Assembly (NCBI GenBank): GCA_009914755.4
Contig: CP086569.2
Location: 8,864,001-8,928,000, forward strand
Length of the DNA: 64,000 nucleotides
DNA from: the human T2T-CHM13v2.0 reference genome, Homo sapiens
Reading direction: 5' to 3'
Positions 1-58,668 of this stretch are shown piece by piece. The notes beneath the pieces are model-generated. The model did no database searches and was not told where the DNA came from. It saw only the letters and a program-made list of their open reading frames with translations. A program made the translations under genes and the position numbers. Position 1 is the stretch's first letter, and each line of letters opens with the position of its first letter.

Positions 1-3000
1 CAAGTCATATGCAACAACTTCCATGGGAGTCACCTTCCCCTGCAAAAGAAGCCACTCTTCCAGAAAGAAGAGGAGCACACCACACCCATGAAGAGACATC
101 TAGTGTTTCATTGTCCTGCGGCCAGCCCAGGGAGGGATACTAGCATTCCTGTCTGCAGGGCCCATTGAATTTACATCAAATTCGGTTCTCAGCTGAGTAG
201 GAGCTTCACTTCATGAGGGGGCACTCCTCTATCATCTTGAGATCTCATTCTGGGACAGAGTGTGAGCAGCAGTAAGGTCAGTTAGGGGTGTACATGCAAT
301 CTGGTGAGGGGTAGATGGGGTCCCACACCTTCACTTGAAAAAAAGTGAAGGCAGATTACACAGAAGTACTTCCAACTGCATGCCCACATTCTCCTAACTG
401 CACAGGCAGTCCACACCATGGCCTGCTGTTCAGGTGGGAGTACTCCAACATGCAGGGAATATTTGGAGTGCAAACTGGGGCCATCATGGCAAACTCCCAA
501 TTTGAGGGCTTTCATACTGGGAGCCTAGGTCTGGCTCAATGTCTTCCACACTAAACATTTCCCAGTTCACCAAGGATGACCCTCATGAGAATCCATTGTG
601 TGAGTGTTTCCTTCTAAACATTGTCATGTTTTAATGACTGGGCAGTTGTGGTATTTTAAAATTGTAAATTCCCATTACAGCCACCAACAAGAAAACTCTT
701 GTTCTCCCACTTCTATCAGAGGGCTGCATGATTCCTGTAGGAGGCAGCCATGTCTGGCATTTGCCTGGTAATCTAGACTCTGTTTCATTGTGCCTGCATG
801 TCCTTGCTCATTGGGCTGTTGCTGTATGGGACTGCCTCTCACCACAGATCTTTTAGCCCCCAGGGATTTCAGGGAGCAAAAGAGATTTCAGGTAGGCTGG
901 CTGCACTCCAGGTTGTGGGTTGTGGTCTCATTTTGGAGACTGAGGTTGTTTGCACTTTGCAGGTGGCTTTTGGGTTCTCTGAAAGAAGCCTTTCAGTATT
1001 GCTTGGACTTCAGCACAAGTTAGCTGATTCTCTCACTCGAGCCTTTATTCTCTCACTCACTCCTTTGCTTTCATGGAAGGTAGACATTGCCCCTAAACAG
1101 CATTACTGCACACCATTTTCAGGCTTACAATTGCCACAAATGGCCTCTGAGACACTGTCTCAACCTCATCTGCACCCATGAGAGGCCAGTTGGAGGTGTG
1201 AGAACACTGCCCCACCATGGACTTGCCTTTGTTGTGGTTCCTGCCTTTCCCAGAGAGCACCTGCGAGGCCCAGGATGAAGGCAGGCAATGATATTCAGGG
1301 CACAGCCATCTTTTGTTGACACCTGCCTCTGGGGTCACAGGTATGACTCCATGAACCAGAGACCCCTCAACAGCTCACCAGACTATATTCCAATCACCAT
1401 GGGACCTGATTTCTGCACTCTTTCAGGGATGAAGTCAGAGGTGCAGTTTCCAGTGACCAGGTCACAGTCTTGAAATGCCTCCTCCTTCAAGTGAAACCTG
1501 ACCAGCAAGATGGCCTGAAGAAGACCTATGGTCAAGAGTTTTAGGGTCTCTCAGTGGATTATCTCAGGCAGCCATTTTCCCAACACCAGGCCAGCTCTGC
1601 CTATACCATTTTTCTCTGCTTAGGCATGCTGACAGCTCTGACAGATGGGCTGCTGAGCCTGTGACAAGAATGCAAATGCACTAGTCTCCTGGCACCAGGC
1701 CAGAGCTCTGAGCTCTGGCAAGCATCATAATGAATGACAGCATTGCCTAGCAACAAGTCCCTGAGGCTTGGTGAAGAGGGCGATCTCTGTGTATGGGTGT
1801 TGGCAGTGAACTTTCTTTCACCTGTCTTCTCTGAGGGATTCATAGGATAGTCCCATTATCCTTGGAGAGAGCATATGTGAGACATCATGAAGAAAGGTCA
1901 AACAGAGCCCAGGAATAATCCACAAAATCCCTAAGGATTCAAAAAATCTGCAGGATGCCTCAGGCCTGCCTAGATGTTCAAGGGGTGAATCTTTTGGAAA
2001 TTTGCCCCACTGTGATTTCTTGGTACAGCCCTCCTGTGTTACTTGGGGTTGTTCTCTCCCAGTTTGGGATTTCTGCAGAACCACCCAGCCTCAGAACCTG
2101 CAGGCCTGTAGTTTCTGTGGGAGTGTTGTAAGTTTGGATGTCTGCATGTGTGTGTGGCTTTGTGGTGTGTGTGTATGTGTGTGTGTTAAATGGAGTCTAA
2201 CTAAATGAATTAGGCTAACGCACTGCAGTGCTTTTTTTTGTCTCTCAACTTTTTGGTAGCCTATTTGTGTGGTTCTGCTTGGGCTGTGGGGCTCTGTGTT
2301 CTTTATTTTTCTGTGGATCAAGAACCCTCAGTGATTTGGGAGGCTGGCTGTGACCCACTATGGTCCAAATATCCTGAACCTGCAAAAAAAGCCACTCTTC
2401 TCGAAAGAAGAGGAGCACACCTCACCCAAGAAGAAACATCTCCCAGTGTTTCATTGTCCTGTGGCCAACCCAGGGAGAAACACCAGCAGTCCTGAAGGCA
2501 GGGCCCCTTGAATTTACCTTGAATTTGGTTCACAGTAGAGCAGGTGCTTCGTGTCATGAGGGGGCACTCCGCCATCGTCTTGGGATTTTATTCTGGGACA
2601 AACAGTGTGAGCAGCAGTAAGGTAAGATGGGGTGAGGATATAATCTGGTGAGGTTTGGATGCAGACCTGCACCTTCACCTGCAAAAATAGTAAAGAACTG
2701 ATGGCACAGAACGTGCTTCCAACAGCATCCCCACATTTGCTTAATTGCACAAGCCGTCCATGTCATGGCTTGGGAGTACTTCTGCGTGCAGGGAACATTT
2801 GGAGTGCATACTCGGCCATCCTGGCAAACTCCCAATTTCAGGGCTGTCATACCCAGAACTAAATGGGTGTGGGATGGATTGATGTTTGGTGGGATGTGAC
2901 CTTCACACTTGTCTCCTCTTCTCCTCACTTACATTTCCCTCATTGGCCTAGGTTTTCCTGGGTCTGTCTAAATGTCTACCACAATAAAGGTTTCCCAGTT

Positions 3001-4944
3001 CATGGAGGACGACCCTCATTTGAATCCATTGTGTGAGTGTTTCCTTCTAAACACTGTCGTGTTTTAATGACTGGGCAGCTTTGATACTTTTAAAACTGTA
3101 AATGTCAGTTACAGCCACCAAAAAGGAAACTCCTATTCTCCCACTTATTTTTCAGAGGGCTGCAAGATTCCTGTATGATGAGAAGCAGGCAGCTATGTCT
3201 GATATTGCCTGGTAATCTAGCCTCTGTTTCAATTCATCTTCAAGTCCTTTCTCATTGTGGAGGGGCTCTTTCATTGGGTTGTTGCTGCATTGCACTGCCT
3301 CTCACCCCAGATCTTTTGGCTGCCAGGGATTTCAGGGAGCAAAAGGGACTTGGGGTAGGCTGGCTGCACTCCAGGTTGTGGGTTGTTGTCTCATTGTGGG
3401 GGCTGAGGTTGTTTGCACTTTGCAGGAGGCTTTTGGGTCCTCTGACAGGAGTCTTTGAACATTGCTTGGATTCCACCATAAGGCAGCTCTTTCTCTCAGT
3501 TGAGCCTTGATTTTTCTTTGCTTTCAAGGGGAATACACAGTGCCCCTTAACAGCACTACTGGACACAATTTCAGACTTGGCACCACCACAGACGTTTCCA
3601 AGATACTCTCTCAACCTCATCTGCACCTACAAGAAGCCAGTCCGAGGTGTGAGAACACTGCACCACCTTGGACTTGCCTTTGTCATGGTTTCTGCCTTTC
3701 CCAGACAGCTCCAGAATGAAGGGTGGCAGTGAGGTCAAGAGTCTGACCATCTTTCACTGGCACCCACCTCTGGGTTCTCAGGCACGTTTCTATCACCCAG
3801 AGAACCCTCAAAAACACAGCAGATTATATTCCAGTCCCCATGGGACCTGATTCTTGCACACAGCCCCTTTGGAGAATAAAGTCAGAAGAGGAGTTTCCAG
3901 CGACCACCTCACAGTCTCAAAAAGCTTCCTCCTCCAGGAGGCCCCAACCACAGATATGGCCCAAGGGGCCCTGAGGTCGAGAATTTTAGTGCCCTGCAGT
4001 GGGTGTTTGCAGGCATCCTTTACTTCAACACCAGGTCGGCTCTGACTGTACATTTTCCTGTGCTTAGGCAGCCTGACAGTTCTGCTAGCCTGGAGGCCTT
4101 GCCTGCCTCACGAATGCGCATGCGCTAGACTCAAGGACTCAGGCCTGATTATGAGCCCTTGCTTGTGTCACATCGAATGTCACAGTTGCCTAACTACAAG
4201 TCCCTGCGGCTTTGCGGCGAAGGAGACCTCGTGGAGGTGCCTTGGCAGTGGGCTTTTGCGTCTCGTCTGTTGTATTCACCAGATACTCCCATGATCCTAG
4301 GGCAGACGTGAGCCAGCCTGAAGAAACCTCAAGCACGACCTCAGGAATAAATTGCAAAATCCTAAGAATCCAAAAGGATCTGAAGGATTCCTCAGGCCTG
4401 CCTAGACGTTGTAGGGGTGAGTCTTTTTTAAACTTGCCCCACTGTGATTTCTAGATACAGCCCGCCTGTGTTCCGCGAGTTTGCTGTCTCCCAGATGGGG
4501 CTTCCTGCAGAACCACGCATCCTCAGCAGCTGCTGGACTGTGTGTTTCTCTGGGAGACTTGCAAGTGTTAGATGTTTGCCTGTGTGTGTATGTGTGTGTG
4601 TGTATGTGCCAGTAAGTGGCGTCTGTTTAAAGGAATGAGGCTAACACACTTAAGCACCTTTTTTTTTTTTTTTTTTAGTCTCCCAACCTAGTGTTGTCCT
4701 GTCTCTGTGGCTCTGCTTAGGCTGCGGGGCTTTGTTTTCTTTATTTTTCTGTGGATCGTGAATCCGCAGCAAATTGGGAGGCGTGCCATGACCCGCTGGC
4801 GTCCAAATCACCTCTGCCAGCAGAACAACAACAGCAATAACAAAAAAAGCCACTTTTCTAGAAAGAAGAGGAGCACACCACACCATAAAACAGGTCTCCC
4901 AGTGTTCCATTGTCCTGCAGCCAACCCAGGGAGAGACACTAGCA
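1..4944 (+). repeat. Tandem macrosatellite-like array, forward-orientation units (~2 units; period 2340 then 2463 bp between 'gccactcttc...gaagaggagcacac' landmarks at 50, 2388, 4851)
   Basis: Direct self-alignment by eye: 40-280 ~ 2380-2625 ~ 4843-4944; 560-650 ~ 3000-3070; 740-1000 ~ 3190-3450. Each unit contains a (TG)n tract, e.g. 2140-2190. Confidence 0.85.
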
Positions 4945-7900
4945 GTCTTTTCCACAGCGAAACACACAAAGCCACACACACATGCAGACATCCAAAACTT
5001 ACAACACTCTGACAGAAAAACACAGCCCGGCATCTCCTGAGGCTGCGTGGTTCTGCAGGAAGCTTCACCTGGGAGACAGCAACCCTGGGGAACTCATGCA
5101 GGCTGTATCTAGAAAACACAGTGGGATAATTTTCAAAAAGACTCACCCCTGCAAAGTCTAGGTAGGCCTGAGGCATTCTGCAGATCCTTTTGGACACTTA
5201 AGAGATTTCGTAGTGAATTCCTGCGGCTCTGCTTGAGGTTTCCTTAGGCTGGCTCACATCAGCATTCTCCTAGCATCATGAGATTATGCTGAGGGTCCCA
5301 CAAACAGTACAAGCGAAAGTCTGTGGCCGACCCACCTCCGCAGATGTTTCCTTCTCCGCTAAGCCACAGGGACTTGTCTCTAGGCAATGGTGGTGGCATT
5401 CATTGAGACATCAGCCAGAGCTCACAGTTCAGGTCTGGTGCCCTGAGACTAGCGCATGCGCATTCACGAGGCAAGGTTGGGCGCCTGGCTGTCAGAGCTG
5501 TCAGCCTGCCTAACCAGAGGAAAATGGTACAGCCAGAGCCGGCCTGTTATGGGAAAAAAGGCTGACTGCAGTAACCCACTGTGGGACACTAAAAGCGTCG
5601 ACCTCAGAGCTCTGTCGGGTCTTCTCTGTGGTCTGGTCTCGCTGAAGGAGGACACATTTTGAGACTGTGAGGAGGACGCTGGAAACTGCTTTTCTCACTC
5701 CATGGCTGAAAGAGGCTGTGTGTAAGAATCAAGTCCCATGGGAATTGGAATATAGTCTGGTGAGTTTCCGGGGGTCTTCGGGTGATGGAATCATACCTGA
5801 GACCCCAGAGGAGGGTGTCTGTGAAAGATGGCCAGGCCCTTGATGTGACTGCCTCCCTTCATCCTGGCCTCACAGGGGCTCTTGAGAAAAGGCTGGAACC
5901 ATGACAAAAGGAGGTCCAAGTTGGAGAAGTGTTTTCACACCTCGAACTGGCCTCTCACGGGTGCAAATGAGGTTGAGACAGTGTCTCAGCGCCCATTTGT
6001 GGCGAATGCAAGCCTGGAATGGTGTCCAGTAGCACTGTTGAAGGGCAATGTGGACTCCCCAGTGAAAGCAAAGAAAAATCAAAGCTCGCCTGAGAGAACG
6101 AGCTGACTAGTGCCAGAGACACAGCAATGTTAAAAGATTTCTATCAGAAGACCCAAAAGCCCCTGGCAAAGTGCAAACAAACTTGGCCCCCAAAATGAGA
6201 CCACCACCCAAAACCTGGAGTGTAGCCAGCCTACCTAAAGTCCGTTTTGCTCCCTGAAATTACTGGCAACCAAAAGATGTGTGGTGATAGGCAGTCCCAC
6301 TCAGGAAGAGTACAATGAAAGATCCACTCAGCAATGAGAAGACCATGCAGATGAAACGAAGCAGAGGCTACATTACCAGGCAAAAGCCAAACACGGCTGC
6401 CTGCTTCTCATCCTACAGGAATCATGCAGCCTTCTGAAAGAAGTGAAAGAACAAGAGTTTCCTTGTTGGCAGCTGTAAAGGCAATTTACAGGTTTAAATT
6501 ATCAATGCTGCCCAGTCATTAAAACCTGACAGGGTTTAGAAGAAAACACTCACGCAATGGATTCCCATGAGGGTGGTTCTTGAGAATTGAGAAAGGTTTA
6601 GTGTGGAAGTCACTGGGCAGAGACCCAGGAAACCCTAGGCCGATAAGCAACATGGAAGTCAAGAAAAGAAGAGGCCAGTTTGGAGGCCATAGCCCTCCCA
6701 GCAGTAACCCATCCCATTTCCATTTGGCTATGGGTATGAAAAACATAAATCCAGACTTTGCCAGGATGGGCCCAATTTGCACTCCAAATATTCCCTGCAT
6801 GTTGGATTACTTCCACCTGAACACCAGGTCATGGTTGGACTGCTTGTGCAATTAACAGAATAGGGGGATGGGAATGGAAGCACCTTCTGTGTCATCTGTC
6901 TTCATATATTTTTTGCAGTTGAAGTTGCAGGACCCCATCCACTCCTCACCAGATTGTATCCTCATCCCTATCTGACCTTATTTCTGCTCACACTCTATGT
7001 TCCAGGATGAAATCCCAAGATGATGAAGGAGTGCCCCTTCAACCTGAAGCACTTGCTCAGCTAGGAACCGAATTCAAGGTAAATTCAAGAGGTCCTGCAG
7101 ACAGGACTGCTAGTGTCTCTTCCTGGGTTGACCGCAGGACAGTGAAACACTGGGAGACATCTGTTTTTTGGTGTGTTGGTGTGATGTGTTTCTCTTCTTT
7201 CTAGAAGAGTGTTTTTTTTTATTTTTTTCCAGAGGAAGGTGATTTAGACACTGCGTATTCATGATCCACAGAAAAATAGAAAACATGGAGCCCCACAGCC
7301 CAAGCAGAGCCACACAGACAAGCAACCAAAAGAAAAGGTGAGGGACTCAAATAAAGAAGGATTGAAGTGTGTTAGCCACATTCTTTTAAGCAGACTCCAT
7401 TTGCAGGCACACACACACAAACACACAATGCCACACACACACACAGAAATCCAACACTCAAAACACTCCCAAAGGAACACACAACCTGGCAGCTTCTGAG
7501 GCTGTATGTTTCTGCAGGAAGCCCCACCTGGAAAAGAGCAACCCCGGGGAACACAGGAGGGCTTTACCTAAAAATATCAGAGGGGCAAGTTTCAAAAAGA
7601 CTCACCCCTAAAACATCTAGGCAGATCTGAGGAATCCTGCAGATGCTTTTGGATCCTTAGGGAGTTTGCAGTTTATTCCTAGGGCTCTGCTTGACATTTC
7701 TTCAGGCTCCCTCACATCTGCCATCTCCTAGGATCATGAGATTATTCTGTGGATCCCACATAGAAGACAGGCAAAGAGTGCACCGCCAATGCACCTCCAC
7801 AGAGGTCTCCTCTGGAGCTCAAAATCAGGAATGGTTCCCTGAGCTTAGCTCATGAACATTCATAAGGCAGGCTCTGGCACCCAGATGTCAGAGCTCTCAG

Positions 7901-10900
7901 CCTGACTAAGCAGAGGAAAATGCTACAGGCAGAGCCGCCCTGGTATCAAGAAAAACGATGCCTGTGAAAACCCACTGTGAGACTCTAAAAGTCTCAACCT
8001 CAGGGCCCCTTTGGGCCATCTCCATGGTTGGTTCCCACTGGAGGAGGAGGCATTTCAGGACTGTGAGGTTGTTACTGGAAACTGCTCTTCAGACTCTATT
8101 CCTCAAAGAGGCTGTGTGCAAGAATCTGGTCCCATGGAGATTGGAATAGAATCTGTTGTGTTGTTGGGGTTCTTTGGGTGAAAGAATTATACCTGAAACC
8201 CCAGAGATGGGCATCAGTGAAAGATGCCCGAGCTTGACCTCATGGCCTCCCTTCATTCTGGGCCTCACAGGGGCCCTCTGGAAAAGTCAGGAACCATGAC
8301 AGAGGAAAGCCCAAGGTGGAGCAGTTGTCTCACACCTCAGACTGGTCTCTCCTTGGTGCAGATGAGGTTGACACAGTGTCTCAGAGGCCATTTGTGGTAA
8401 TAGTAAGCATGAAAATTGTGTCCAGCAGTGCTGTTAACAGGCATTGTGGACTTTCCCTGAAAGCAAGAAAAAAATAAGGCTTGCCTGAGAAAATGAGCTG
8501 CCTTGTGCTGGAGTCCAATCGATGTTCAGTGATTTCTGTCAGGGTACCCAAAAGCCTACTGCAAAGTGCCAGCAACTTCAGCCCCCAAAACGTGACCATA
8601 GACCAAAACCTGGAGCACAGTAAGCCTACTCAAAGTCCCTTTCGCTCTCTGAAACCCCAAGAAGCTATACAATCTGTAGTGAGAGGCAGTCCCTTCCAGC
8701 AACAGCTCAATGAATGAGCCCCTCCACAGTGAGAGAGAGCCATGCAGATTTAATGAAACCGAGCCTAGATTGCCAGGTAAAACGTACACACAGCTGTCTT
8801 CTTCTCCTCCTACAGGAATCATGCAGGCCTCTGATAGAAGTGGGAGAATAAGAGTTTCCTTGTTGGTGGCTGAAATGGAAATTTATGGTTTTAAAAGTAT
8901 CAAAACTGCCCAGTCATTAAAACGTGACAGTGTTTGGAAGAAAACACTCATGCAGTGGATTCCACTGAGGGTCATTCTCCAGGAACAGGCAAACGTTTAG
9001 TGTGGAAGTCATTTAGCCAGACCCAGGAAACCCTAGGGTGACCAGGAGCATGGAAGTCAGGAAAAGAACATGCAAGTATGGAGGCCACATCCCACCCAGC
9101 ATCAAACCATTCCACTCCATTTGGCTGTAGGTATGAAAGCCCTTAAATCGGGAGTTTGCCAGGATGGCCTCAATTTGCACTCCACATGTTCCTTAAACAT
9201 AGGAGTACTGCCACCTGAACTCCGGGACATGGTGTAGACTGCTTGTGAAATTAAGGGAATGTGGGCACAGAATTGGAAGCACCTTCTGTCATCTGTCTTC
9301 ATCTTTTTGCAGGTGAAGTTGCAGGACCCCTTCCCCTTGTCTTCAGATTATATCCTCACCTTTATCTGATGTTATTTCTGCTCATATTCTGTGTCCCAGG
9401 ATGAAATCCCAAAATGAGGGAGGAGTGTCCCCTCACAATGGTGTAGCACCTGCTCAGCTGGGAATTGAATTTGAGGTAAATATAGGGGCCCTGAGGACTG
9501 GACTGCTAGTGTCTCTCCCTGGGTTGGCTGCAGGAAAATGAAACACTTGGAAATGTCTGTTTTTTTGGTATGGTGTGCTCCTCTTCTTTCTAGAAGAGTG
9601 GCTTTTATTGCACAGGGAGATACCTTGGTCCCCAGCAGGCTTGGTCCGCCTCCAAAGTCACTGAGGATTCATTATTCACAGAAAGATAAATAACACAGAG
9701 CCCCACAGCCCAAAAGAGTCATACAGACAGGCCACCAAAAGGTTAGTAGACTCAAAAAAAAAAAAAAAGAACCGCTGAAGTGCTTTAGCCACATTCCTTT
9801 AAGCAGACTCCACTTAATGTCACACACACACACAAACACACAATAAAACACACGCAGGCAGACATCCAACACTTGCAACACCCCCAAAAAAACACACAGA
9901 CTGTCAACTCCTCAGGCTGTGGGATTATGCAGGAAGACCCATCTGAGACAGAGCAACTCCAAGGAAAATAAATGGGCTGTACCTAAAAATCACAGTAAGA
10001 CAAGTTCCAAAAAGGTTCACCCTTCCAACATCTAGACATCATGCAGATGCTTTTTGATCCTTAGGGATTTGGCAGGAGCTCTTCTTGATGTTTCTTCAGG
10101 CTGGCTCACGTCCTCCCTATCCTAGGATTATGGGACTATCCTGTGGATCTCACAGAGTAGACAGGTGAGAGACCACAGCCGACGAACCTCCATGGAGGTC
10201 TCCTCCTTGGGAGTCTCTTCCACAAAGCCGCGGGGACTTGTCGCTAGGCAACGGTGACATTCGCTGTGACTCTAGACAGAGTTCACACTCAGGACTGGTG
10301 CCCTGAGAGTAGCTCATGTGGATTCCTGAGACATGCTTATGTGTACTGCTGTAACAGCGTTCAGCCTGCCTAAGCAGAGGAAAATGGTACAGTCGGAGCT
10401 GGCCTGCTATCAAGAAAAAGGCTGCCTGTGAAGACCCATGGCGGGACAATAAAAGCCTCAACCTCAGGACTCATTTGGACCATCTCTGTCTTCGCGTCCT
10501 GATGGAGGATGAGGTGTTTCAAGACTGTGAGGTGGTCACTGAAAACTGCCGTTTGAAATCCATTCCCAAAAGAGAATGTGTGTCTTCAAGACTCGGGTCC
10601 CATGGTGATTGGCATATAGTCTGTCTGGTGTGTTGTTGATGGTTCTTTGGGTCATAGCATCATACCTGAGACTCCAGAGGCATTTTTTAGTAAAGATGTC
10701 TGGGCTCTTGACCTCACTACCTCCATCATCCTATGCCTAGCAGGGGCTCTCTGAGAAATGCAGGAACCATGAAAAAGGCAAGTCAAAGTTTGAACCATAT
10801 TCTCACACCTTGGACTGACCTCTTATGGGTGAAGATGAGGTAGAGACCATGTCTCAGAGGTCATCTTTGATGATGGCAAGCCTGAAAAGGATATCCAGTA

Positions 10901-13900
10901 GAGCTGTTGAAGGACACTGTGGATTGCCCATAAAAGCAAAGAAAAATCGATGCTCACCTGACAGAATGAGCTGCACTGAGCTGGAGTTTAAGCAATGTTC
11001 AATGCTTCCTGTCAGAGAACCCAAAAGCCTCCCAAATTGCAAACAACTTCAGCCCCCACAATGAGACAACAACTCGAAACTTGGAGCACAGCCACACTCC
11101 TCAAAGTCCCTTTTGCTCTTTGAAATCCCGGGAAGCAAAATAATCTTTGGTGAGAGGCAGTCCCATCCAGCTACAGCCCAGTGAAAGAATACCTGCTCAG
11201 TAAGATGACTATGCAGATGAAAAAAATCAGAGGCTAGACTACCAGGCAAAAGCCAGACAGGGCTGACTTCTTCTCACCCTACAGGAATCATGCAGAATGC
11301 CAACAGAAGTGAAAAATACAAGAGTTTCCTTGTTGGCGGCTATAAGGGAATTTACCGTTTTAGAAGTATCAAAGCTGCCCAGTCATTAAATTGTGAAAGG
11401 GTTTAGAAGGAAACACTCATGCAATGGATTCCCATTAGGGTCATTCTCTGTGAACTGAGAAACATGTTTTGTAGAAGTCATTGAGCCAGACACAGGAAAC
11501 CCTACACTGACAAGAAACATGGAAGTCAGAGAAAGAAGGGGCAAGTGTGGAGGCCACTTCCCACCTACCATCAATCCATTTCATTCCCATTTTGCTCCCA
11601 GTATGAAAGCCTGCAAATTGAGAGTTTGCCAGGATGACCCCAGTTTGCACCCCAAATATTTCTTGCACATTGGAGTACTTTCACCTGAACACCGGGCCAT
11701 GGTGTGGACTGCTTGTGCAATTAAGGGAATGTTGGGATGGAGTTGGAAGTACCTTCTGTGTCATCTGTCTTCATTTTTTTGCAGGTGAAGTTGTGGGATC
11801 TCATCCAATTCCCACCAGATTTTATCCTCACTCTTGTCTGACCTTATTGTTGCTCACACTCTATGTCCAAAAATGAAAACCCAAGACGATGGAGTATTGC
11901 CCCCTTATGATGTGAAGCAACTGCGTGGCTGGGACCTGAATTTGAGGTAAATTCAAGGGCCCTGTGGACAGGACTGCTAGTGTATCTTCCTGCATTGGCT
12001 GCAGGACAATGAAACACTCAGAGATGACTGTTTTTTCATGTGGTGTGCTCCCCTTTTTTCTAAGAGTGGCTTTCTTTTGGAGTGAGAGGTGAGTTTGACA
12101 CTGGTGGGTCTCAGGCTGCCTCCCAATTCACTGGGGATTTATGATCCACAGAAAACTAAAGAACATGGAGCCCCACAGCCCAAGCAGTGCTGTACAGACA
12201 AGCCACCAAAAAGCTGGGAAACTCAAAAAAAAGAAGTGCTAAAATGTGTTAGCCATATTCCTTTAAGAATACTCCACTTATATTCTAACACGCACACACA
12301 CAGACACACACACACACAGACATCCAACACTCTCAATACTTTCACAGAAACACACAGGCTGGCAGCTCCTGAGGCTGTGTGGTTCTGCAGGAAGCCCCAT
12401 CTGGCAGAGAGCAACCTCGGGGAACACAGCCACTATACCTGGATATCACAGTAGAGCAATTTCAAAAAGACTCAACCCTACAAAGTCTAAACAGGTTTGA
12501 AGAATTCTGCAGATTGTTTTGTATTCTCAGGGATTTCACAGTTTATTCCTGGGGCTCTGTTTGATGTTACTTCTGGCTGCCTCATGCCTGCCCTTTCCTG
12601 GGATCATGGGACTATCCCATCGATCCAACAGAGAAGACAGTCAAGAGTCCACTGCTGATGCACCTCCACAGAGGTCTCTTTATCTGCCAAGCTTCAGGGA
12701 CTTGTCACTAGGCAAAGGTGGCATTCATTGTGAAGCTAGCCAGAGCTCACAATCAGGCCTGGTGCCCTGAGACTAGTGCATGCACATTAATGAGGCAGGT
12801 TTTAGCGCTGGCTCTCAGACCCGTCAGCCTGCCTAAGCAGAGGAAAATGGCAGAGGCAGAGTCAGTCTGGTATCAGGAAATAAGCTGCCTGTGAAACACA
12901 TTGCAGGACCCTAAAAGTCTCAACTTTGGGGGTTATTCAAGCCATCTTCATGATTGTGTTCCACTGGAGGAGGAGGCATTTCAAGACCATGAGGTGGTCG
13001 TGGAAACTGCTCTTCTGAGTCAATTCCCGAAGGAGGCTGTGTTAAAGAATTGAGTCCCATAACGATTGATATATAGTCTGGTGTGTTCTAGAGGGTACTT
13101 TTGGGTGATAGCATCATACCTGAGACCCCACAGGTGGGTGTCAGCAAAAGATGACCAGGCTCTTGACCTCTCTGCCTCCCTTCATCTGGGGCATCGCATA
13201 GGCTCTCTGGGAAAGGCAGGAAGCCAGACAAGGCAAGTATAAGATGAACACTGTTCTCACACCTTGAACTTGCCCCTCATGGGTTCACATGAGGTTGTGA
13301 CACCATCTCAGAGGCTGCCTGTGGTGACAGCAAGCCTGAAAAGGATGTCCAGTAGTGCTGTTGAGGAGCACTGTGAATTCTCCATGAAAGCAAAGAAAAA
13401 TCAAGGCTCACCTGAAAGAATGAGTGGCCTTGTGCTGGAGTCCAAGCAATGTTCATGATTCCTGTCAGAAGACCCCAAAGACTCATGCAAAGTGCAAACA
13501 ACCTCAGCTCCCACAACAATACAACAATCCATAATCTGGAGTGCAGCCAGATGACCCAAAGTCCCTTCTGCTCTCTGAAATCTCTGGCAGCTAAATAATT
13601 GGTGGGAAGAGGCATTCCTATCCAGCAACAGAACAATGCAAGAGCCCCTCCACTATGAGAAGGCCACGCAGATGAAATGAAACAGAGGCTAGTTTACCAG
13701 GCAAAAGCCAGACACAGCTGCAAGCTTCTCATCCTACAGGAATCATGCAGCACTCTGACAGAAGTGGGAGAATAGGTGTTTCCTTGTTTGCTGCTGTAAC
13801 AGGAATTAACGGTTTTTAAAGTATCAGAGCAGCCCCGTCAATAAAAAGTGAGAATTTTTAGAAGAAAACGTTCATGCTATGGATTCCCATGAGGGTCATT

Positions 13901-37100: not shown

Positions 37101-38483
37101 TTCGAGACTGTGAGGTGGTCGCTGGAGATGGCTCTTCTGTCTCCATTCCTGAAAGAGTCTGTGTGCAAGAATCAGGTCCGATGGGGATTGGAAGAGTCTG
37201 ATGAGTTGTTGAGGGTTCTTTATGTGATGGAATCATACCTAAGACCTCAGAGTTGAAAGGTGCTGGGCACTTCACCTCACTGCCTCCCTTCATCCTCGGC
37301 CTCACAGGGCCTATCTGGGAAAGGCAGGAACCACGACATAGGCAAATCCAAGGTTGAGCAGTGTTCTCTCACCTTGATCTGGCCTCGCTTGTGGGCAGAT
37401 GAGCTTGTGACAGTGTCTAAGAGGCCATCTGTGGCGATGGCAAGCCTGAAAAAGGTGTCCAGTAATGTTATTGATGGGCAATGTGGACACCCCAGGAAAG
37501 CAAAGAAAAATCAATGCTCACCTATGAGAATGAGCTGCCTTGTGCTGGAGTCCAAGCAACGTTCAACGATTCTTGTCAGAGGACCCAAAATCCTCCTTCA
37601 AAGTGCAAATATCCTCAGCCCCCAAGACGCAACCAGGACCCACAACCTGGAGTTCAGCCAGTCTATCTGAAGTCCCATTTCCTCTCTGAAATCCCTGGAA
37701 GCCAAAAGATCTGTGGTGAGAGTAGTTCCATCCAGCAACAGCCCAGTGAAGGAGCCCTGTGACAATGAGAAAGGATGTGCACATGAAATGAAACAGAGCC
37801 TAGATAACGAGGCAAATGTTAGACACTGTTACCTGCTTCTCATCCTACAGGAATTGTGCCACCCTCCGATAGAAGTGGGAGATGAGTTGTTTCCCTGTTG
37901 GTGGCTGTGTGGGAATTTACATTTTAAAACTATCAAAGCTGTCCAGCCATCTAAAACATGAGTGTTAAGAAGGAAACACTTATGCAATGAATTCCCATGA
38001 GGGTCATCCTTCATGAACTGGGAAATGTTTTGTGTGGAAGATGGTGAACCAGACCAAGGAAACCCTAATTCGATGAGGAACACAAAGTCAGAAAATGAAG
38101 AGGCAAGTGTGGAGGCCACATCCCACCCACATCAATCCATCCCACTCCCATTTGGCCCTGGGTATGAAAATCATCAAAGTGCAAAACCCCAGTTTGCACT
38201 CCATATGTTAATGGCAGGTTGGAGAATACCCACTTGAACACAGGGCCATGGTGTGGGCTGCTTGTGCAATCAACGGAATGTGGGGATGCAGGTGGAAGCA
38301 ACTTCTGTGTCATCTGTCCTCACCTTTTTTTCAGGTGCAGGTGTGGGACACAATCCACACCACACCAGATTGTATCCCTTTCCCTATCAGACCTTATTGC
38401 TGCTCACACTCTCTGTCCCAGAATGAAATCCCAAGATGGTGAAGTAGTGTCCCCTCATGACGTTAAGCACCTGCCTGGCTGGT
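31168..38483 (-). repeat. Macrosatellite array continued (reverse orientation, ~3 units; CA-tracts at ~31750, 33930, 36400). The unit around 33130-33200 carries a ~370-bp internal deletion. The array ends at ~38483.
   Basis: 31170-31400 ~ 6800-7010; 35470-35600 ~ 6500-6640; 37930-38480 ~ 13830-14400. After ...aagcacctgcctggctgg at ~38480 the sequence no longer matches the unit. Confidence 0.85.
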
Positions 38484-41246: not shown

Positions 41247-41325
41247 CTAAAGCTTCATCCTTGTAGGTGAGGCATCATACATGGCAAGGATAGTTTTATA
41301 AAATACCATGAAATACATAATTTAG

Positions 41326-41392
41326 TAACCAATTCAGCACTTGAAATTTCCCAACTTAGTAACCAATTCAGCACTTGAAATTTCCCAACTTT
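41326..41392. repeat. Local tandem duplication of a ~34-bp motif (agtaaccaattcagcacttgaaatttcccaact x2)
   Basis: Direct repeat visible in the sequence. Confidence 0.85.
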
Positions 41393-43182
41393 GTATTCAC
41401 CAGGAGTTAATGATGTATGGCACTTATAGTAAGTAAATTAAGGTTTGAATTGCTGTTATTTAAGTCATTGCTCAGCTAATCATTTAAGGTATCAAAGATT
41501 TTTACTTGTGCAATATCATAAACGCTGGACATTAAATATTAATCACTAGGATTTATGTATCTAAGAGCTACCATCTAATGTGATATTCTTCAGTAAGTTG
41601 ACAGCAATAATTATGCTGAAAAATAGTCATTCCCATAGTGTGAGTCATTACAGCAATTTCCATCTGAGGATTTCATAGTCAGAGTCCAGATCTGGGCAAC
41701 AGTGATTAATATAAAGGTTTTTAATGAGAAGAGATTTTGATATATCTAGCTGTGTTTAGATGTCAGTGCCTTGAATGGATGGGTTTGGTATTAATAAGAA
41801 AGGGTGCATTGGACTGGATACTAAGAAACGTATTGAATTGTTTCTCTTGTTCTCCATAACATGAAAGGTAAATCAGAGATATAGAAACAATGGAAAATTT
41901 CACAGAATGGCCTGACATTTCACTGCACTTTTATTTTTTTTAGCCACTTACAAATTCTTTAAACATACAAAGGTAGGACTGTTACAGGAAAAAAGTGTTG
42001 GTGTGAGAAGTCACAATCCACAGCAAAGTAATAGTCTGTTGTGGATGGCACCTTGAGTGCTGAATTAGAGTGAGAATCAACTTTCAGGCTGCCAACCTGG
42101 GACAAGGAGAATGAAGCTATCAGCAGTTAACATTATTGGATCAATTAAAGTGAATGTCAACAGAGATTTTGTTGATTTTACATCAAATTGAGTATAGGAC
42201 TTCAAATTGATTATTTGATAAGGATAAACTCTTACCAAATTTCCCACATGAAAAATTGAGAACTAAAAGATTACACAACCCATACATTATGAGTATCTCA
42301 TATAAATTTAATATACACATGTGCTAACTTACAGTGTGCAAATATTTGTCTATATCTAAATATATCCAAATCCATTGATGAACAGTTAGAAATTTAGAAA
42401 TTATTCTCCCATTTTAACTTTCCCTTTCCTAGAATTTTGTCACAAATATAATTTTTCCCTCTGTTTGAAGCCTACTCTCTGGAGGCATGTAATATATGGA
42501 TACAGTAAAGCCATGAGATATTACAGGGTTTGTATCAGAGAAAATAATAAAACTGGTGTTATAAAAGATCCACTGTAAGGAGAATTTTATACTTCACATG
42601 ACTACGAATACAGAAGTGTTATTTCATTGAAAGCTGATATCAGTCAATACAATTTGTTTTTAATGTTTTGTTTAAAATACTTAATCTCAAAAGGATTATT
42701 TGAGTAATGTTATTGGTAATAAATAACGATTAAGAATTTCCTTTCATTTGTTGATTATTTAAAATGCAAGTAAAATACTAAAAAGTACTGTATAATGTAG
42801 TTTCATGATGCATTCTCTGTGGTTTTTGTAAAATTAATAGCCTCAATGGAATTTTTTGACACAGAGAAATTTCCTTATTTCATTATTGTACTTTCACTTT
42901 ATTACTTGCTTGCATATCATAACTGATGGAAATAAAATATTTTTATTTACACATATACAAAGCATGGAATTTTATGTTTTCTAGTGAGAAAAAGTCACCA
43001 ATAATTTTATCAGTATAGGAAAATTTTGATATGCCCAAAGTTCTTAACTTTCTTTTCTTTAGAAGTTTCATATTTCAGTCTAGGTATGAGATGGAATTGA
43101 CTGTGATCATTGTTTTTATTTCACTGTGACTACTGAGTTTCTGATACAGTGATACTAATGTATAGACTTAAAAGCTTGCCTC

Positions 43183-43245: not shown

Positions 43246-44289
43246 TCCATGTGATTTCTGCAGTAATATGCACCGTTATCTGAAATAAGGTTACTAAAAG
43301 GTACAAGCATAAGTGGAATTCTTTATTTTTATGAACCTTTAGGAACAGACAAGTAAAACTGAAACATAGTTGTGATATGAATTTAAGTCTGCAGTTTCTC
43401 ACAGAAGTCCAAAAGGGTGAAAATAAATTTAAAAATGCATGCCTCATCCAAAACATCATGTAGAATAATGAAAAATTTAATTTGACATAAATACCAATTT
43501 AAAAGTTATAATTATTTCAGGTGAGAGAAAGTAGCACTAAAAATCCTATTTTTCCTGTTTAAGTACATAACTATTACTGTATCTTCAGGCCTTAAAAAGT
43601 GTTAAGTTTAACTTAAGCAACAACTTTCTGGCAATTTCTAACAATGAGTGCATCATCTTAGAATTTCTCCAAGAATTTTTTGGGAGAAATATAATCAAAT
43701 TTTGCTCTGTAAACAATTGAATTAATCAATAGAATTATTGACTGTAGTCTTGAAATTTCATTGTCCTTCTCTTTTCAGTTTTTACATATTCTATTTAAAG
43801 TTCAAAATCCCCTAGGAAAAATATGATAAATAACAATGACTGAAAAAGTTGAGAAACAAAAACTGAGCAGCAGACACATTTCAGGCTTTCCTTTATGAGA
43901 ATGCTACACTAACCATGTAATATACACAATATAAATCACTGTGAGAAAAAAAAACATTTGTGTAGCTACTTGACAGTTTATACAGTAACAGCAAATATTC
44001 TCACTTGAACTTCAAAAGGGTTTTTAAGCTTGTGTTTCATAAATGAGGAAAATGTGGTTTGTATTTCCTGTATTTGCCTATTACAGCAGTTATCACACTT
44101 ATTATTCCTCATTTATCTCTGTGCCTGTAACAACTGCACTCTCAGAAGAGCAAGGACCATGTTTTTCTGAGCTTCTTGCAGACTGCCAGGCTTATTGTGG
44201 CATTTAGAAACTATCCGCTGAATGTTTGTGACATTTTCATGCGAGTTAGATTCTAGGCCACTTGATACTAATCTTCTATTTAATATTTG

Positions 44290-44975
44290 GGTTTGGAGAG
44301 CTATTTTTCCTTTTCAGTTTTTTTTTCTTTTATCTTTTTTTTCTTTTTTTATTATAAATTAAGTTTTAGGGTACATGTGCACATTGTGCAGGTTAGTTAC
44401 ATATGTACACATGTGCCATGCTGGTGCACTGCACCCACTAACTCATCATCTAGCATTAGGTGTATCTCCCAATGCCATCCCTCCCCCCTCCCCCCACCCC
44501 ACAACAGTCCCCGGAGTGTGATATTCCCCTTCCTGTGTCCATTTTTTCCTTTTTTTATTATACTTTAAGTTCTAGGGTATATGTTCACAACATACAGGTT
44601 TGTTACATAGGGATACATGTGCCATGTTGGTTTACTGCACACATCAACTCATTATTTACATTAGGTATTTCTCCTAACGCTATCCCTCCCCAGCCCCGCA
44701 ACCCACTGACTGCCCCGTGTGTGGTGTTCCCCGCCCTGTGTCCATGTGTTCTCATTGTTCAACTCCTACTTATGAGTGAGAACAGGCAGTGTTTGGTTTT
44801 CTGTCCTTGTGATAGTGTGCTTAGTATGATGGTTTTCAGCTTCATCCATGACCTTGGAACCACAAAGAGATACCATCTCATGTCAGTTAGAATGGCAATC
44901 ATTAAAATCAGGAAACAACAGATGTTGGAGAGGATGTGGAGAAATGGGAATGCTTTTAAGATTTTTTTAAAGTAT
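44290..44975 (-). mobile_element. Two adjacent L1 3'-end fragments (L1PA-like) in reverse orientation, the first truncated
   Basis: 44340-44545 and 44548-44975 each contain ttagggtacatgtgcac...gtgccatg(c/t)tggt...ctaa(c/t)gc(t/c)atccctcccc, the reverse complement of the L1 3' end. The second continues into L1 ORF2-end sequence (gtgagaacaggcagtgtttggttttctgtccttgtgatagt...). Confidence 0.85.
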
Positions 44976-47900
44976 ATTTTAAGGATATGCTTATCTGGAC
45001 ATGGAGTGGACAGTGCAGGTCATGGTCAGTGGGACCTCCAAAGGAGGCACCCCATTCAAATTGGAGGTTCTGCAGGAGAGGGCAGCCAGGGTACAGAGCT
45101 CGAAGGCGCCCTTGGGGGAGGAGAAGGTGCTGGTGGTGGACAACGTCATGGTGGTGGTTGAGAAGAAGGCCAACATGGAGCCTGGTGGAGGACCAGCAGA
45201 CACTGCCTGGTCCTGGCCCCAGCACACCCTGGCCAGCCACAGATTCGCTGGAGGTCCTTCACTTGAAGCAGAGTTCCATGAATAACCAGGCCACATGGCC
45301 TGCCCACAGCTGAGAGGGAACCTTTGGCAGAGGTGCCTCCCCCGCCTGGATGGCACAGGGGCCATCAGCCAGGGCATCTCCAGCTTCTGGGCCACAGCCA
45401 CATCTTTGCAGCTGCCCATTCGGAATGACTGGCAGCAGGGGGTGGGCATCTGGCTTCCTGGGGTGGGGAGCAGGGGAGCCAAGCAAGGGGCACACGGGGC
45501 CAACCAGGAGGAAGGGGATGGGGGATAGTGAGGGGATCTGAGGCCAGGGTCCTGCAGATAGGAGGGCAGCTTGCTTGGGGGTGCCCTGAGAGCACGTGGT
45601 AGGGACTGGGAGCCAAGCTCAGCACTCACAAGGGAGAATAGCGGCCCCATGGACCCTTCACGCACAGCAGAAACTTGAAGGGCATGTTTCCATGAGAAAG
45701 TCCTTGGAGGAAGGGGAGTCTGCATGCCCATGCCAGCCATAGAAACCACCCTGGCTGCCCATGTCTGTGGCCAGCAGCCTTACCCCAGAAACACAAGGTG
45801 CTTCAGACTCAGGTTCACGGTGCACGGGGCTGCTGTCATCTGCAAGGCAGGCACCAGCTCCCCAGATAGGCTTTCTTCCTTCTGCCTGCACTGCACCCAA
45901 AGAGCTGTAGGCCCTGGGCATATACAACCTCCGTTGCACATACACCTCCATTACACACATGGGAGCCCCATGGGGAGTGACAGGCACAGCCCTGCAGTCC
46001 CTTCTATCCACAGCAGCTCCATCAAGTGGACATGCCCACCTCTCAGGGAGACCAGAAGAGGGGACTGCACACCTGGACACCCTCAGCAGAGCCAGTCCAG
46101 TATCCAGCACACAATGACCATGTGCAGCTCAGCAACTCTGAAGATACAGCCGCCTCACACAACGGCACCCCACACCCAATCCCCTGCCTACTTGTGCCGC
46201 CCGCTCCTTGTTGGCAGGGGCTTTCTGGGCCTCCCTCCACCCTCCCACAAGACCACCACAACCACTACCATGCCCCCAACACTGGACAGAGACAGGACCA
46301 CGAATGCAGGGTACCAGGTCAAAGGTTTTGGGATAGCCCTGCCAAACACTCTCCCAGCTCTTGCAAAGTTGTGGGGTGTTTCCTGGCATGCCCACCCAAT
46401 CATCTGGAGGTTCCTTGACCAGAGGCAGATTGTGCAGCACACCTACATGTCGGCAGAGTTCAGAAACCATGAGGAAGTCCTGCTAAGTAAGCTACAGGAT
46501 GGATTTGAAGCTCAGGCTGAGGAGCCAGGGTCTGCAGGACGGGTCCAGGGTCCTGTTCAGGTTGAGGTCCTCCTGGGGCACAGGGGTGTCTGAGTGGTAG
46601 AGCTGGGAAGGGGCAACACATGCTTCACCCCAGCCAGCAGGCCCTCAGCCCAGATAGATGAAATGGATCCTTTGAGTCTGTCCTCTTCTTCTTGGCATGG
46701 CAGGTGGAGGAACTCAGTCATCCGGGGTACCGGCAGCAGGATGAAGTGTTCCTTTCATCACTACCTTTATTTCCACAATAAAGTGATCATTAAGGAATAT
46801 CGTGTTCGCATCCTTGGTAAGGAGTGCCTCCTGGTGTGGTAGAGAGGGTGGAGTGTGGGACGCTAGGCCTGGCATGAGCCTTTCTGACTCGTTCCAGGAT
46901 GCAGGGCTTCTGGCTCTAGTGTAGTCCAGTGGTTCTAGAGTCATCAGAAGAAGCCCCACCTTCAGTAAGGACACAGCCTACCTGAGCTTCCTCAGCTAGA
47001 TGGCTGACTGTGACCACTCAGGGTCAGCCAGGACTGCTGAGGCAGGGGCCGCTGTGGGGTGTCATGGGAAAGGACCTTGCTGGTCTTTCCTTGGCATCTT
47101 GGGAACTGGCTTTGAACTATGACCTGACCTTTCACAGACCACTTCCCCACTCCTCCAGATCATCAGTCAGGGCTTCTGACTCAATCCCCTGCAGCACTAC
47201 CTAAGGATTAGGTCCTCAGAGAGGGAACAGAGAGGAGGCCAGGTAAGCAGCCCACAGCTGGGGGCTCAGAGGCCTGTGGGTCCTGCAGCTGTGACACACA
47301 TGGAGAACTCAAGGCTCAGGGAGGAGCCTGCAGTGAGAAATCCCAGCCATCCCTGGACTGGGGCAGAAAAGCCCATCAGGGAACTGTAACACTCATATTT
47401 CAGAATTGGGGAACCTGAAGTGCCTAAGAGGCAGAAGTGGCAAAGGTCAATGGGTGAGAAGCAACGCTCAAGGGATAGCTGTCTCATCATCCTTCTCTGG
47501 CTCCCTTCTATGCCTTGAGGCCTGCTACTACCTGGGGCTCAGTATGGGCTCAACTAGAGTGCACGCAGGGCATGCCTAGGTCTACGTACTTCTAGAATGG
47601 CTATACCAGCCGTGTCATGTTTTGTTTCAATGACCCCAGGCTCCCCTGACATGCTTTATCCCCTCTGCCATCCTCACTCATGCTTCCCCGGCTCTCAAGA
47701 TATTTCCTATGACATTAAAAAATAGACATAAAGTTTTTAAAATGCCTTAATAATATAGATGCAGATAAAAGATTTCATTATAAAAAGTGCTTTTCCTCTT
47801 TACTTGTATCAAAGTCTTTTTCATGATGGGGAAAAGAATGCAACATACTTTGGTAAGTTAAAAAAGCATAAAAGTAAAAATAAATCCTACTGCAGATGAT

Positions 47901-51390: not shown

Positions 51391-51752
51391 GATAAAAAGA
51401 TATAAAGAAAAAAAGAAAGAAACACAGGAATGAAGAAAGGAAGGGAGGGAGGGAGGGAATGAAAATTTGTATGTAACAGTTGTAGGTATTTTTGGCATAC
51501 ATGTGATATTTTGATACAAGTAATGTGAACTGGTAAGCGAGGGATCAAAGAGGGGATGGGGGTGGGTTAAATTATACTTGCTTAGAAGGAATAATATCTA
51601 GTGTTCAGTGGCACAGGATGACTACACTTAATAATGATTTATTGTACATCTCAAAATAATTAATAGAGCGAAGGTGGAATGTCGCTCGTACCAAGAAAAG
51701 ATATACCAGACTCAGTGAGGTGGAATGTTGCTCATACCAAGAAAAGATATGC

Positions 51753-52050
51753 CAGACTCAGTGGCTCACAGCTATAATCACAACACTTTGGGAAGCCAGG
51801 GAAGGAGGATCATTTCAGCCTGGGAGTTTGAGACCAGCCTGAACAATATATCCAAAGCATTGTCCCTACCACACACACACAAAAGCTGGGCATGGTGGTT
51901 GGTGTGTGTCTGTAATTCCAGCTACTTGGGAGGCTGAAATGGAAGTCTGGCACATTTGAACCCCGTGTCCAAGGCTGCAGTGAGCTACGATGGTGCCACT
52001 GCAGTCTAGGCTGGACAACAGAGTGAGACCTTGTCTCTAAAAAAGAAAAA
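51753..52050 (+). mobile_element. Alu, preceded by a ~40-bp local duplication at 51665-51752
   Basis: Reads gccagactcagtggctcacagctataatcacaacactttgggaagcc...ctgcagtctaggctggacaacagagtgagaccttgtctctaaaaaag. Confidence 0.9.
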
Positions 52051-58354: not shown

Positions 58355-58580
58355 TGGATGGCCAGGCTTAGCGGCTCACACTGTGAGTGAGTGTGGAAGG
58401 CTGAGGCAGGTGGACCGCTTGAGCCCCGGGCTTTAACATCAGTTTTGACAATGCAGTCAGATCCTCTCTCTACAAAAACATAGGAAAAAAATGTACCTAG
58501 GTGTGGTGCTGCATGCCTGTAGTTGCAGAAACTCGGGAGGCTGAAACAGCAGAATTGCTTGAGCCCAGGAATTTGAGGCT
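58355..58580 (+). mobile_element. Old Alu/FLAM-like element
   Basis: Reads ggccaggcttagcggctcacactgtgagtg...gctgaggcaggtggaccgcttgagccccgggc...gtggtgctgcatgcctgtagttgcagaaactcgggaggctgaaacagcagaattgcttgagcccaggaatttgaggct. Confidence 0.7.
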
Positions 58581-58668
58581 ATAGTAAGCCGTCATCTCAC
58601 AAATTTGAGGCTATAGTAAGCCGTCATCTCACAAATTTGAGGCTATAGTAAGCCGTCATCTCACATAG
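58573..58668. repeat. 32-bp tandem repeat x3 (tcacaaatttgaggctatagtaagccgtcatc)
   Basis: Direct triplication visible in the sequence. Confidence 0.9.

What the first reader, a model, noticed from the sequence alone, without database searches (positions are those of the whole stretch)
4840..5050. Head-to-head inversion junction inside the array at ~4945
A forward unit runs normally through ...cagggagagacactagcagtc (4944). It then joins abruptly to the reverse-complement unit at its CA-microsatellite (cacacaaagccacacacacatgcagacatccaa...), skipping ~340 bp of unit relative to a perfect palindrome. All units downstream (to 38483) are reverse-oriented. This is either a genuine inverted-array boundary (palindrome arm) or an assembly mis-join. 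A T16 run and a TG tract lie within 300 bp upstream.
Basis: seen in the sequence. Interest (0 to 1): 0.6.

Follow-up and report, generated by a model that had tools for sequence, protein, structure and literature searches.

The report
Old inversion breakpoint in decayed repeat array
The orientation flip is real in the sequence, but it looks like one end of an ordinary, old cut-and-rejoin inversion inside a decayed, non-coding 2.45-kb tandem repeat of a primate genome, not a palindrome and probably not an assembly error.

Summary
The window holds an old, non-coding tandem array of about 2.45-kb units in primate-type DNA (Alus, ERVs). Units are 72-84% identical in a star-like pattern (mean K2P 0.28).

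- **Orientation:** units at 41-4957 lie on the minus strand. Units at 4958-38482 lie on the plus strand, with two ERVs nested in one unit.
- **Junction:** the flip is real but sits at 4952-4957, not 4944. The left arm continues through TTTTCCACAG (unit position 2141). The right arm starts in its CA tract. CCACA(G) fits both arms, so there is 4-6 nt of microhomology and no filler.
- **Not a palindrome:** the arms are only about 82% complementary, the same as any unit pair. Left units neither mirror the adjacent right units nor form their own clade.
- **Partner breakpoint:** the plus array ends at 38482 at unit position 2110. That is only 30 bp out of phase with the left arm's end (chance about 2.5%). 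This points to one simple inversion with its partner breakpoint at the array edge, inside the window.

An assembly flip cannot be excluded without reads. Against it, there are no Ns, no shared repeat at the join and no perfect foldback. No function is indicated. Ordinary, low interest.

The parts
41..4957 (-). Left arm: minus-oriented units La (41-2174), Lb (2177-4608) and partial unit Lj (4609-4957, consensus 2486 down to 2141). The array continues upstream of the window.
   Evidence: BLAST of a reference unit against the window; local alignment to the 2486-bp consensus; comparison with the reverse complement of individual units.
4952..4957 (.). Inversion junction. CCACA(G) is compatible with both the left arm (consensus 2141-2146, reverse complement) and the CA tract that starts the right arm. 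This is 4-6 nt of microhomology with no filler.
   Evidence: The junction 18-mer is unique in the window.
4958..38482 (+). Right arm: plus-oriented units R1 4960-7414, R2 7415-9829, R3 9830-12287, R4 12288-14745, R5 (14746-15829 + 21837-22566 + 31168-31773), R8 31774-33917 (internal deletion), R9 33918-36405 and R10 36406-38482 (ends at consensus 2110).
38482..38483 (.). Right end of the array and proposed partner breakpoint. Unit similarity stops at consensus 2110, 30 bp short of the left arm's end at consensus 2141. An unrelated AT-rich flank follows.
   Evidence: Local alignment. A sensitive BLAST of the consensus against 38483-64000 finds no further unit sequence.
4571..4608 (.). TG-rich tract. 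This is the CA tract that marks every unit boundary, seen in reverse complement. It is a normal unit feature.
4659..4676 (.). T18 run: an expansion of the unit's A8 run (consensus 2405-2412) seen in reverse complement. It is a normal unit feature, not a junction feature.
15830..21836 (-). ERV insertion a, inside unit R5. LTRs at 15868-16451 and 20953-21835 are 86-88% identical. The gag ORF 20181-20861(-) hits Pfam Gag_p10.
22567..31167 (-). ERV insertion b, inside the same unit. LTRs at 22568-23004 and 30718-31155 are 79.8% identical. The pol ORF 26996-27625(-) hits RT_RNaseH_2. It shows the array is very old.

Best explanation
The junction at 4952-4957 is one breakpoint of a single, simple (cut-and-rejoin) inversion in an already existing, same-orientation tandem array of 2.45-kb non-coding units. 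The partner breakpoint is at the array edge.

Two versions fit the present structure equally well.
- **Version A:** segment 4958-38482 was flipped. One break lay inside a unit at about consensus 2110-2141, with 30 bp lost. The other lay at the CA tract where the ancestral array met the flank now at 38483.
- **Version B:** the left arm, including what lies upstream of the window, was flipped.

The ends were rejoined by end joining or a template switch that used a few bases of microhomology. The array is a neutrally decaying relic, and the junction has no indicated function.

**Shown:** the orientation switch, the exact unit coordinates of both ends, the microhomology, the lack of mirrored similarity, and the star-like decay of the units.
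**Inferred:** that the two ends were once contiguous, the repair mechanism, and neutrality.
For: 1. The left arm ends at consensus 2141 and the right array ends at consensus 2110. Partial units Lj and R10 therefore add up to one unit minus 30 bp. For two unrelated ends, a phase match within +/-30 bp of a 2486-bp unit has probability 61/2486 = 2.5%.
2. There is no mirrored similarity. Arms are 82% complementary against 78-80% for the same left segment compared with distant units (I8-I12). Mirrored pairs have K2P 0.262-0.293 against a mean of 0.281, sd 0.017.
3. Left units do not form a clade. They fall among the right units (La+R5 58%, Lb+R8 47.5% bootstrap), as expected if all units come from one array.
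4. The join has 4-6 nt of microhomology (CCACA(G)), no filler and a small 30-bp loss. From general knowledge, this is typical of non-homologous or microhomology-mediated joining.
5. There are no Ns in the window, and no long inverted repeats or hairpins at either breakpoint.
6. The unit shows no conserved block beyond the shuffle expectation, no Rfam family and no protein homologues for the consensus ORFs.
Against: The phase match is a single coincidence test (p about 0.025), made after looking at the data.

The star-like phylogeny gives almost no power to confirm the ancestral unit order.

No outgroup or second assembly could be examined. Junction ORFs are not in the contig collection. Junction k-mers were absent from metagenome and prokaryote genome contigs.

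A contig flipped during assembly would produce the same phase match.

Versions A and B cannot be told apart from this window.
Confidence: 0.6

Rival explanations
1. The junction is the relic of an inverted duplication (foldback or palindrome). The left arm was copied in reverse from the right arm with a spacer, and both arms then decayed.
For: The head-to-head arrangement with an asymmetric spacer (arms 4360-4601 / 4962-5203, 360 nt apart) resembles foldback junctions. Microhomology at the join also fits template switching.
Against: Mirrored unit pairs are no closer than random pairs (K2P 0.262-0.293 against a mean of 0.281; identity matrix). A duplication would therefore have to be as old as the amplification of the array itself. 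This model does not explain the 30-bp phase match between 4957 and 38482.
Confidence: 0.12
2. Two arrays grew independently. A proto-unit was first duplicated in inverted orientation, and each copy then amplified in tandem on its own side.
For: The star-like unit tree cannot strictly exclude it.
Against: This model predicts a left clade and a right clade. Instead La groups with R5 (58%) and Lb with R8 (47.5%), and no left-only split appears among the recovered bootstrap splits. It does not explain the phase match of the two ends.
Confidence: 0.08
3. Assembly artefact: a contig covering about 4958-38482, or the left part, was placed in the wrong orientation, or a chimeric join was made.
For: A flipped contig would also give ends that are in phase. 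One end lies at a microsatellite, where assemblies tend to break. No independent sequence spanning the junction was found.
Against: - There are no Ns or gaps anywhere in the window.
- The sequences on the two sides share no high-identity overlap that an assembler could mis-join, because units differ by 16-28%.
- The arms are 18% diverged, unlike a missed-adapter or foldback chimera, which is a perfect palindrome.
- The join uses only 4-6 nt of overlap.
Confidence: 0.12
4. Functional head-to-head centre: the flip created or preserves a divergent promoter region. It would drive transcription outward along both arms, as in a bidirectional lncRNA or piRNA-precursor locus.
For: - The highest CpG retention in the array is centred on the junction. 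At 3.5-6.5 kb the observed/expected ratio is 0.28-0.42, against about 0.1-0.15 elsewhere.
- Lb, Lj and R1 are among the top units for CpG in each segment.
- Intact GCGCATGCGC (NRF1-type) motifs lie at 4116 and 5452, on either side of the junction.
- Each unit carries splice-acceptor-like and donor-like strings.
Against: - R9, which is far from the junction, retains as many CpGs and the same motif.
- With 10 units, the chance that both junction-flanking units fall in the top three is about 7%.
- No block of the unit is conserved beyond the shuffle expectation.
- There are no expression data, and the motif matches are short.
Confidence: 0.05

Closest known systems
Strand flips ('mosaic inversion structure') inside human satellite arrays (BSat, HSat) reported in T2T-CHM13
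   Same: Both are abrupt orientation switches within a tandem array, with no change of repeat family. [quoted passage not shown]
   Different: Those arrays are homogenised (typically over 90% identity), have short units and show multiple flips. Here the unit is 2.45 kb and units are only 72-84% identical. There is one flip, and its partner breakpoint appears to be the array edge.
Simple inversions joined by non-homologous or microhomology-mediated end joining (general class of structural variant)
   Same: There are two breakpoints, a few bases of microhomology at the join, a small deletion (30 bp) and no flanking inverted repeats.
   Different: The ancestral state has not been observed, and both breakpoints lie in or at the edge of one tandem array. 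That the class has these hallmarks rests on general knowledge and was not tested here.
Human macrosatellites (DXZ4, D4Z4, SST1 2.4-2.5 kb arrays; PMC3018141 listed)
   Same: Kilobase-scale tandem units. The SST1 arrays have a similar unit length of about 2.4-2.5 kb.
   Different: - No homogenisation: units are 72-84% identical.
- CpG-depleted, with observed/expected 0.04-0.25.
- No CTCF-type motif.
- No evidence of copy-number dynamics.
Sequence identity to SST1 could not be tested because no reference sequence is held.
Foldback or palindromic inverted duplications (e.g. breakage-fusion-bridge products, Y-chromosome palindromes)
   Same: Head-to-head arms separated by an asymmetric spacer.
   Different: The arms are not copies of each other. 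Mirrored pairs are as diverged as random unit pairs, and there is no sign of arm-to-arm gene conversion near the centre (82% complementarity).

Membership tests
Palindrome / foldback inverted duplication | Arms are reverse-complement copies of each other, more alike than unrelated units. | tested here: not met
   Arms are 82% complementary, against 78-80% for the same left segment compared with distant units. Mirrored pairs have K2P 0.262-0.293, against an array mean of 0.281 +/- 0.017.
Palindrome / foldback inverted duplication | Extra copies exist relative to the ancestral state (a duplication, not a balanced event). | not testable with these tools
   This needs an outgroup genome or population data, and no eukaryotic genome collection is available.
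Simple inversion joined by NHEJ/MMEJ | Two breakpoints whose outer and inner sides reconstitute contiguous sequence when the segment is flipped back. | tested here: met
   The left arm ends at consensus 2141 and the right array ends at consensus 2110. Flipping 4958-38482 back rebuilds one unit minus 30 bp. The chance of this phase match is about 2.5%.
Simple inversion joined by NHEJ/MMEJ | Junction with little or no homology (0 to a few nt of microhomology), small deletions or insertions. | tested here: met
   CCACA(G) at 4952-4957 is shared by both arms. There is no filler, and 30 bp of unit is missing.
Simple inversion joined by NHEJ/MMEJ | The un-inverted ancestral arrangement is seen in an outgroup or another haplotype. 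| not testable with these tools
   Junction ORFs and k-mers gave no hits in the available collections.
NAHR-mediated inversion | Breakpoints lie within a pair of long, highly similar inverted repeats flanking the inverted segment. | tested here: not met
   The sequence at 38483 onward has no similarity to the unit or to the left arm. The breakpoints sit at non-homologous unit positions, 2141 against the CA tract.
Assembly mis-join | A gap (Ns), or a join through near-identical repeat sequence, or a perfect foldback. | tested here: not met
   There are 0 Ns. Units are 72-84% identical. The arms are 82% complementary.
Assembly mis-join | Reads do not span the join. | not testable with these tools
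   No read data are available.
Homogenised macrosatellite (DXZ4/D4Z4/SST1 type) | High inter-unit identity maintained by unequal exchange or conversion. | tested here: not met
   Pairwise identity is 72-84%, with a star-like tree.
Homogenised macrosatellite (DXZ4/D4Z4/SST1 type) | CpG-rich units, with CTCF sites in the case of DXZ4. | tested here: not met
   Per-unit CpG observed/expected is 0.04-0.25. There are 0 matches to the CTCF core pattern with up to 1 mismatch.

The most novel reading that the evidence does not exclude
The head-to-head centre at 3.5-6.5 kb is a germline-hypomethylated, divergent promoter. It carries paired NRF1-type sites at 4116 and 5452 and would drive outward transcription through repeated splice-site-bearing units on both arms. 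In that case the inversion created a bidirectional lncRNA or piRNA-precursor-like locus out of a one-directional array.
Probability: 0.05. Interest if true: 0.55.

Novelty: new member of a known kind. Interest (0 to 1): 0.15.

Why it matters
It matters little beyond annotation. The case shows that unit-phase bookkeeping alone can pair the two breakpoints of an inversion inside a decayed array. It can also separate a cut-and-rejoin inversion from a palindrome without outgroup data. For assembly quality control, it marks 4952-4957 and 38482/38483 as the two places where read support should be checked together. If the CpG and NRF1 signal around the junction were shown to be functional, the locus would be an example of an inversion creating a divergent transcription unit. 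Nothing here demonstrates that.

Tried and rejected
- **Independent sequence across the junction.** Exact-product look-ups found nothing for the two junction-spanning ORFs looked up (4808-5197(-), 4650-5033(-)) or for two other window ORFs, so the collection apparently lacks this genome. Junction 27-mer and 24-mer scans of metagenome and prokaryote genome contigs gave 0 hits.
- **Related copies from metagenomes.** A conserved unit 22-mer retrieved six low-coverage host-contaminant contigs. One matches the window at 100% over 86 bp and then diverges. Three are other units at 73-78%. Flanks are unrelated and look chimeric, so the contigs are unusable for structure.
- **Coding or RNA function of the unit.** There is no Rfam family and no protein homologue for 817 aa of concatenated consensus ORFs. 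No conserved block exceeds the shuffle expectation by much.
- **CTCF-type macrosatellite.** No motif was found.
- **Templated origin of the supposed filler.** The string is unique in the window. It then turned out to be part of the left arm.
- **Hairpins or short inverted repeats at the breakpoints.** Nothing relevant was found.
- **Locus identification.** Pfam on flank ORFs gave only ERV domains. A literature search for 2.4-kb macrosatellites returned only SST1-type papers. Species and locus remain unidentified beyond 'primate'.
Full report
**What the window is.** The DNA is eukaryotic and primate-like. Three Alu-type elements lie at 60.1-63.5 kb. A betaretrovirus-type gag ORF (Pfam Gag_p10) and a reverse-transcriptase RNase H ORF lie inside two ERV insertions. 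The window has no Ns and no Rfam family reaches threshold.

**The array.** The repeat finder and a BLAST of one unit against the window show a tandem array with a period of about 2.4-2.5 kb.
- I aligned all units and built a 2486-bp consensus, with position 1 set at the CA-rich tract that marks each unit boundary.
- Units are 72-84% identical in all pairings. Mean K2P distance is 0.281, sd 0.017, and the neighbour-joining tree is star-like with weak bootstrap support.
- Conservation along the unit is flat. The best 30-nt window scores 0.933, against a 95% shuffle bound of 0.925.
- Consensus ORFs have no homologues in the 5.8-billion-protein search.
- CpG is depleted, with per-unit observed/expected of 0.04-0.25.
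- No CTCF-type core motif is present.

The array is therefore an old, non-homogenised, apparently neutrally decaying non-coding repeat. Its age is underlined by two ERVs nested in a single unit, R5 (14746-15829 + 21837-22566 + 31168-31773). Their LTR pairs are only 86-88% and 79.8% identical.

**Checking the observation.** Matches to the reference unit are on the minus strand for 41-4947 and on the plus strand for 4960-38482, so the orientation switch is real.
- Local alignment to the consensus first placed the end of the left arm at 4947, consensus 2151.
- Comparison with the reverse complement of individual units shows that the next ten bases, TTTTCCACAG (4948-4957), also belong to the left arm. 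Compare R9 GCAGTCTTGTCCACAG, R5 and R3. The left arm therefore ends at 4957, consensus 2141.
- The right arm begins inside its CA tract. CACAGCGAAACACACAAAGCC matches boundaries such as R1/R2, CACACACAAACACACAATGCC.
- CCACA(G) at 4952-4957 is compatible with both arms, so the join has 4-6 nt of microhomology and no filler.
- The T run (18 T at 4659-4676) and the TG tract (about 4571-4608) are ordinary unit features seen in reverse complement.

**Is it a palindrome?** No.
- The arms next to the junction are 82% complementary. The same left segment is 78-80% complementary to units 3-29 kb away (I8-I12).
- If the left arm had been copied from the right arm, the pairs Lj-R1, Lb-R2 and La-R3 should be closer than average. 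Their K2P values are 0.272, 0.262 and 0.293, against a mean of 0.281.
- La and Lb do not group together. They fall among the right-hand units (La+R5 58%, Lb+R8 47.5% bootstrap).

**The partner breakpoint.** The plus array stops at 38482 at consensus position 2110. What follows has no similarity to the unit. The left arm ends at consensus 2141. If 4958-38482 is flipped back, Lj (2486 down to 2141) and the reverse complement of R10 (2110 down to 1) form one unit lacking only 30 bp, GAACCGAATTCGAGGTAAATTCAAGGGGCC. Two unrelated ends would fall within +/-30 bp of the same phase with probability 61/2486 = 2.5%.

This is what a single cut-and-rejoin inversion predicts. One break lies inside a unit and the other lies at the array edge.
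- **Version A:** the right part was flipped.
- **Version B:** the left part was flipped, so that 38482 is the natural array end and 4957 the natural array start.

The two versions give the same present-day structure and cannot be separated from this window. They make different predictions for the far left end of the array, as set out in the next steps. The microhomology, the small loss, and the absence of flanking inverted repeats or hairpins fit non-homologous or microhomology-mediated joining. That attribution rests on general knowledge of such junctions.

**Assembly artefact?** Several points argue against it.
- The window has no gaps.
- The two sides share no near-identical sequence through which an assembler could mis-join.
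- The arms are 18% diverged, whereas a foldback-read artefact gives a perfect palindrome.

A contig placed in the wrong orientation would give the same phase match, however, and I could not obtain independent sequence across the join. I leave about 12% for this.

**External copies.** A conserved 22-mer of the unit found six low-coverage contigs in metagenome assemblies. They are most simply read as host contamination.
- L003 matches 21867-21952 at 100% for 86 bp and then diverges.
- L002, L004 and L006 are other units, 73-78% identical to the window's units and 81-83% identical to the consensus.

The family therefore has further copies outside the window. The contigs look chimeric: L001 has unrelated flanks and L005 has an alpha-satellite-like flank. 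They say nothing reliable about structure.

**Function.** Nothing indicates one. One thing I noticed is that CpG retention is highest around the junction. At 3.5-6.5 kb the observed/expected ratio is 0.28-0.42, against about 0.1-0.15 for most of the array. Intact GCGCATGCGC motifs sit at 4116 and 5452 on either side of the junction. R9, far from the junction, shows the same features, so this may be chance. It is the basis of the low-probability novel reading, a divergent promoter.

**Comparison with known things.** Orientation flips inside tandem arrays are known, for example the mosaic inversion structure of BSat and HSat arrays in T2T-CHM13 (PMC9186530). This case differs in unit size, in its lack of homogenisation, and in being a single flip whose partner is the array edge. 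It is not a homogenised macrosatellite of the DXZ4, D4Z4 or SST1 type on the criteria of identity, CpG content and CTCF motifs. It fails the defining test of a palindrome.

**Verdict.** The palindrome reading is rejected. The most likely explanation is an ordinary old inversion (confidence about 0.6), and an assembly flip is not excluded. Interest is low.

Noticed in passing
window 14746-31773: A single array unit (R5) is split into three pieces by two nested-in-unit ERV insertions, both on the minus strand. The first is a Gag_p10-type ERV at 15830-21836, with LTRs 86-88% identical. The second is a gamma-like ERV at 22567-31167, with LTRs 79.8% identical.
   Followed up: partly
window 25015-25105: A 91-bp patch inside the interior of the second ERV is 89% identical to the neighbouring unit fragment at 22268-22358 and 90% identical to unit consensus 1568-1659, in the same orientation. 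Its origin is unexplained. It could be a small templated duplication, or the 'ERV' may be composite.
   Followed up: partly
window 3500-6500 and 33500-35000: CpG retention peaks around the junction (observed/expected 0.28-0.42) and in unit R9 (0.30-0.36), against about 0.1-0.15 elsewhere in the array. Intact GCGCATGCGC (NRF1-type) motifs survive only at 4116, 5452 and 34408.
   Followed up: partly
unit consensus ~1950-2135 (e.g. window 9430-9550 in R2): Each unit carries a splice-acceptor-like string (TTTTTTTGCAG|GT) and, about 165 nt downstream, a donor-like string (GAG|GTAAAT). The donor lies within the 30 bp missing between the two array ends. These positions are no more conserved than the rest of the unit.
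   Followed up: no
window 31774-33917: Unit R8 has an internal deletion of about 340 bp (reference-unit positions 1334-1674).
   Followed up: no
L001-L006 (metagenome contigs): Low-coverage host-derived contigs in public metagenome assemblies carry further diverged units of this repeat family. L005 joins a unit fragment to alpha-satellite-like sequence, possibly as an assembly chimera.
   Followed up: partly
window 58570-58665, 51672-51763, 41322-41395: Three short perfect or near-perfect tandem duplications in the AT-rich flank: 32 bp x3 at 100%, 46 bp x2 at 93%, and 34 bp x2.2 at 97%. The 32-bp unit resembles an Alu-internal string.
   Followed up: no
window 44000-50000: A GC-rich block (50-52% GC) has overlapping long ORFs on both strands (up to 289 aa) and no Pfam match. 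The ORF at 44460-45161 reads like antisense LINE-1 3'-end sequence, an impression from memory that was not tested.
   Followed up: partly
window 1-60000: No Alu-type element was found in the first 60 kb, including the roughly 38-kb array. The three Alu matches all lie at 60.1-63.5 kb.
   Followed up: no
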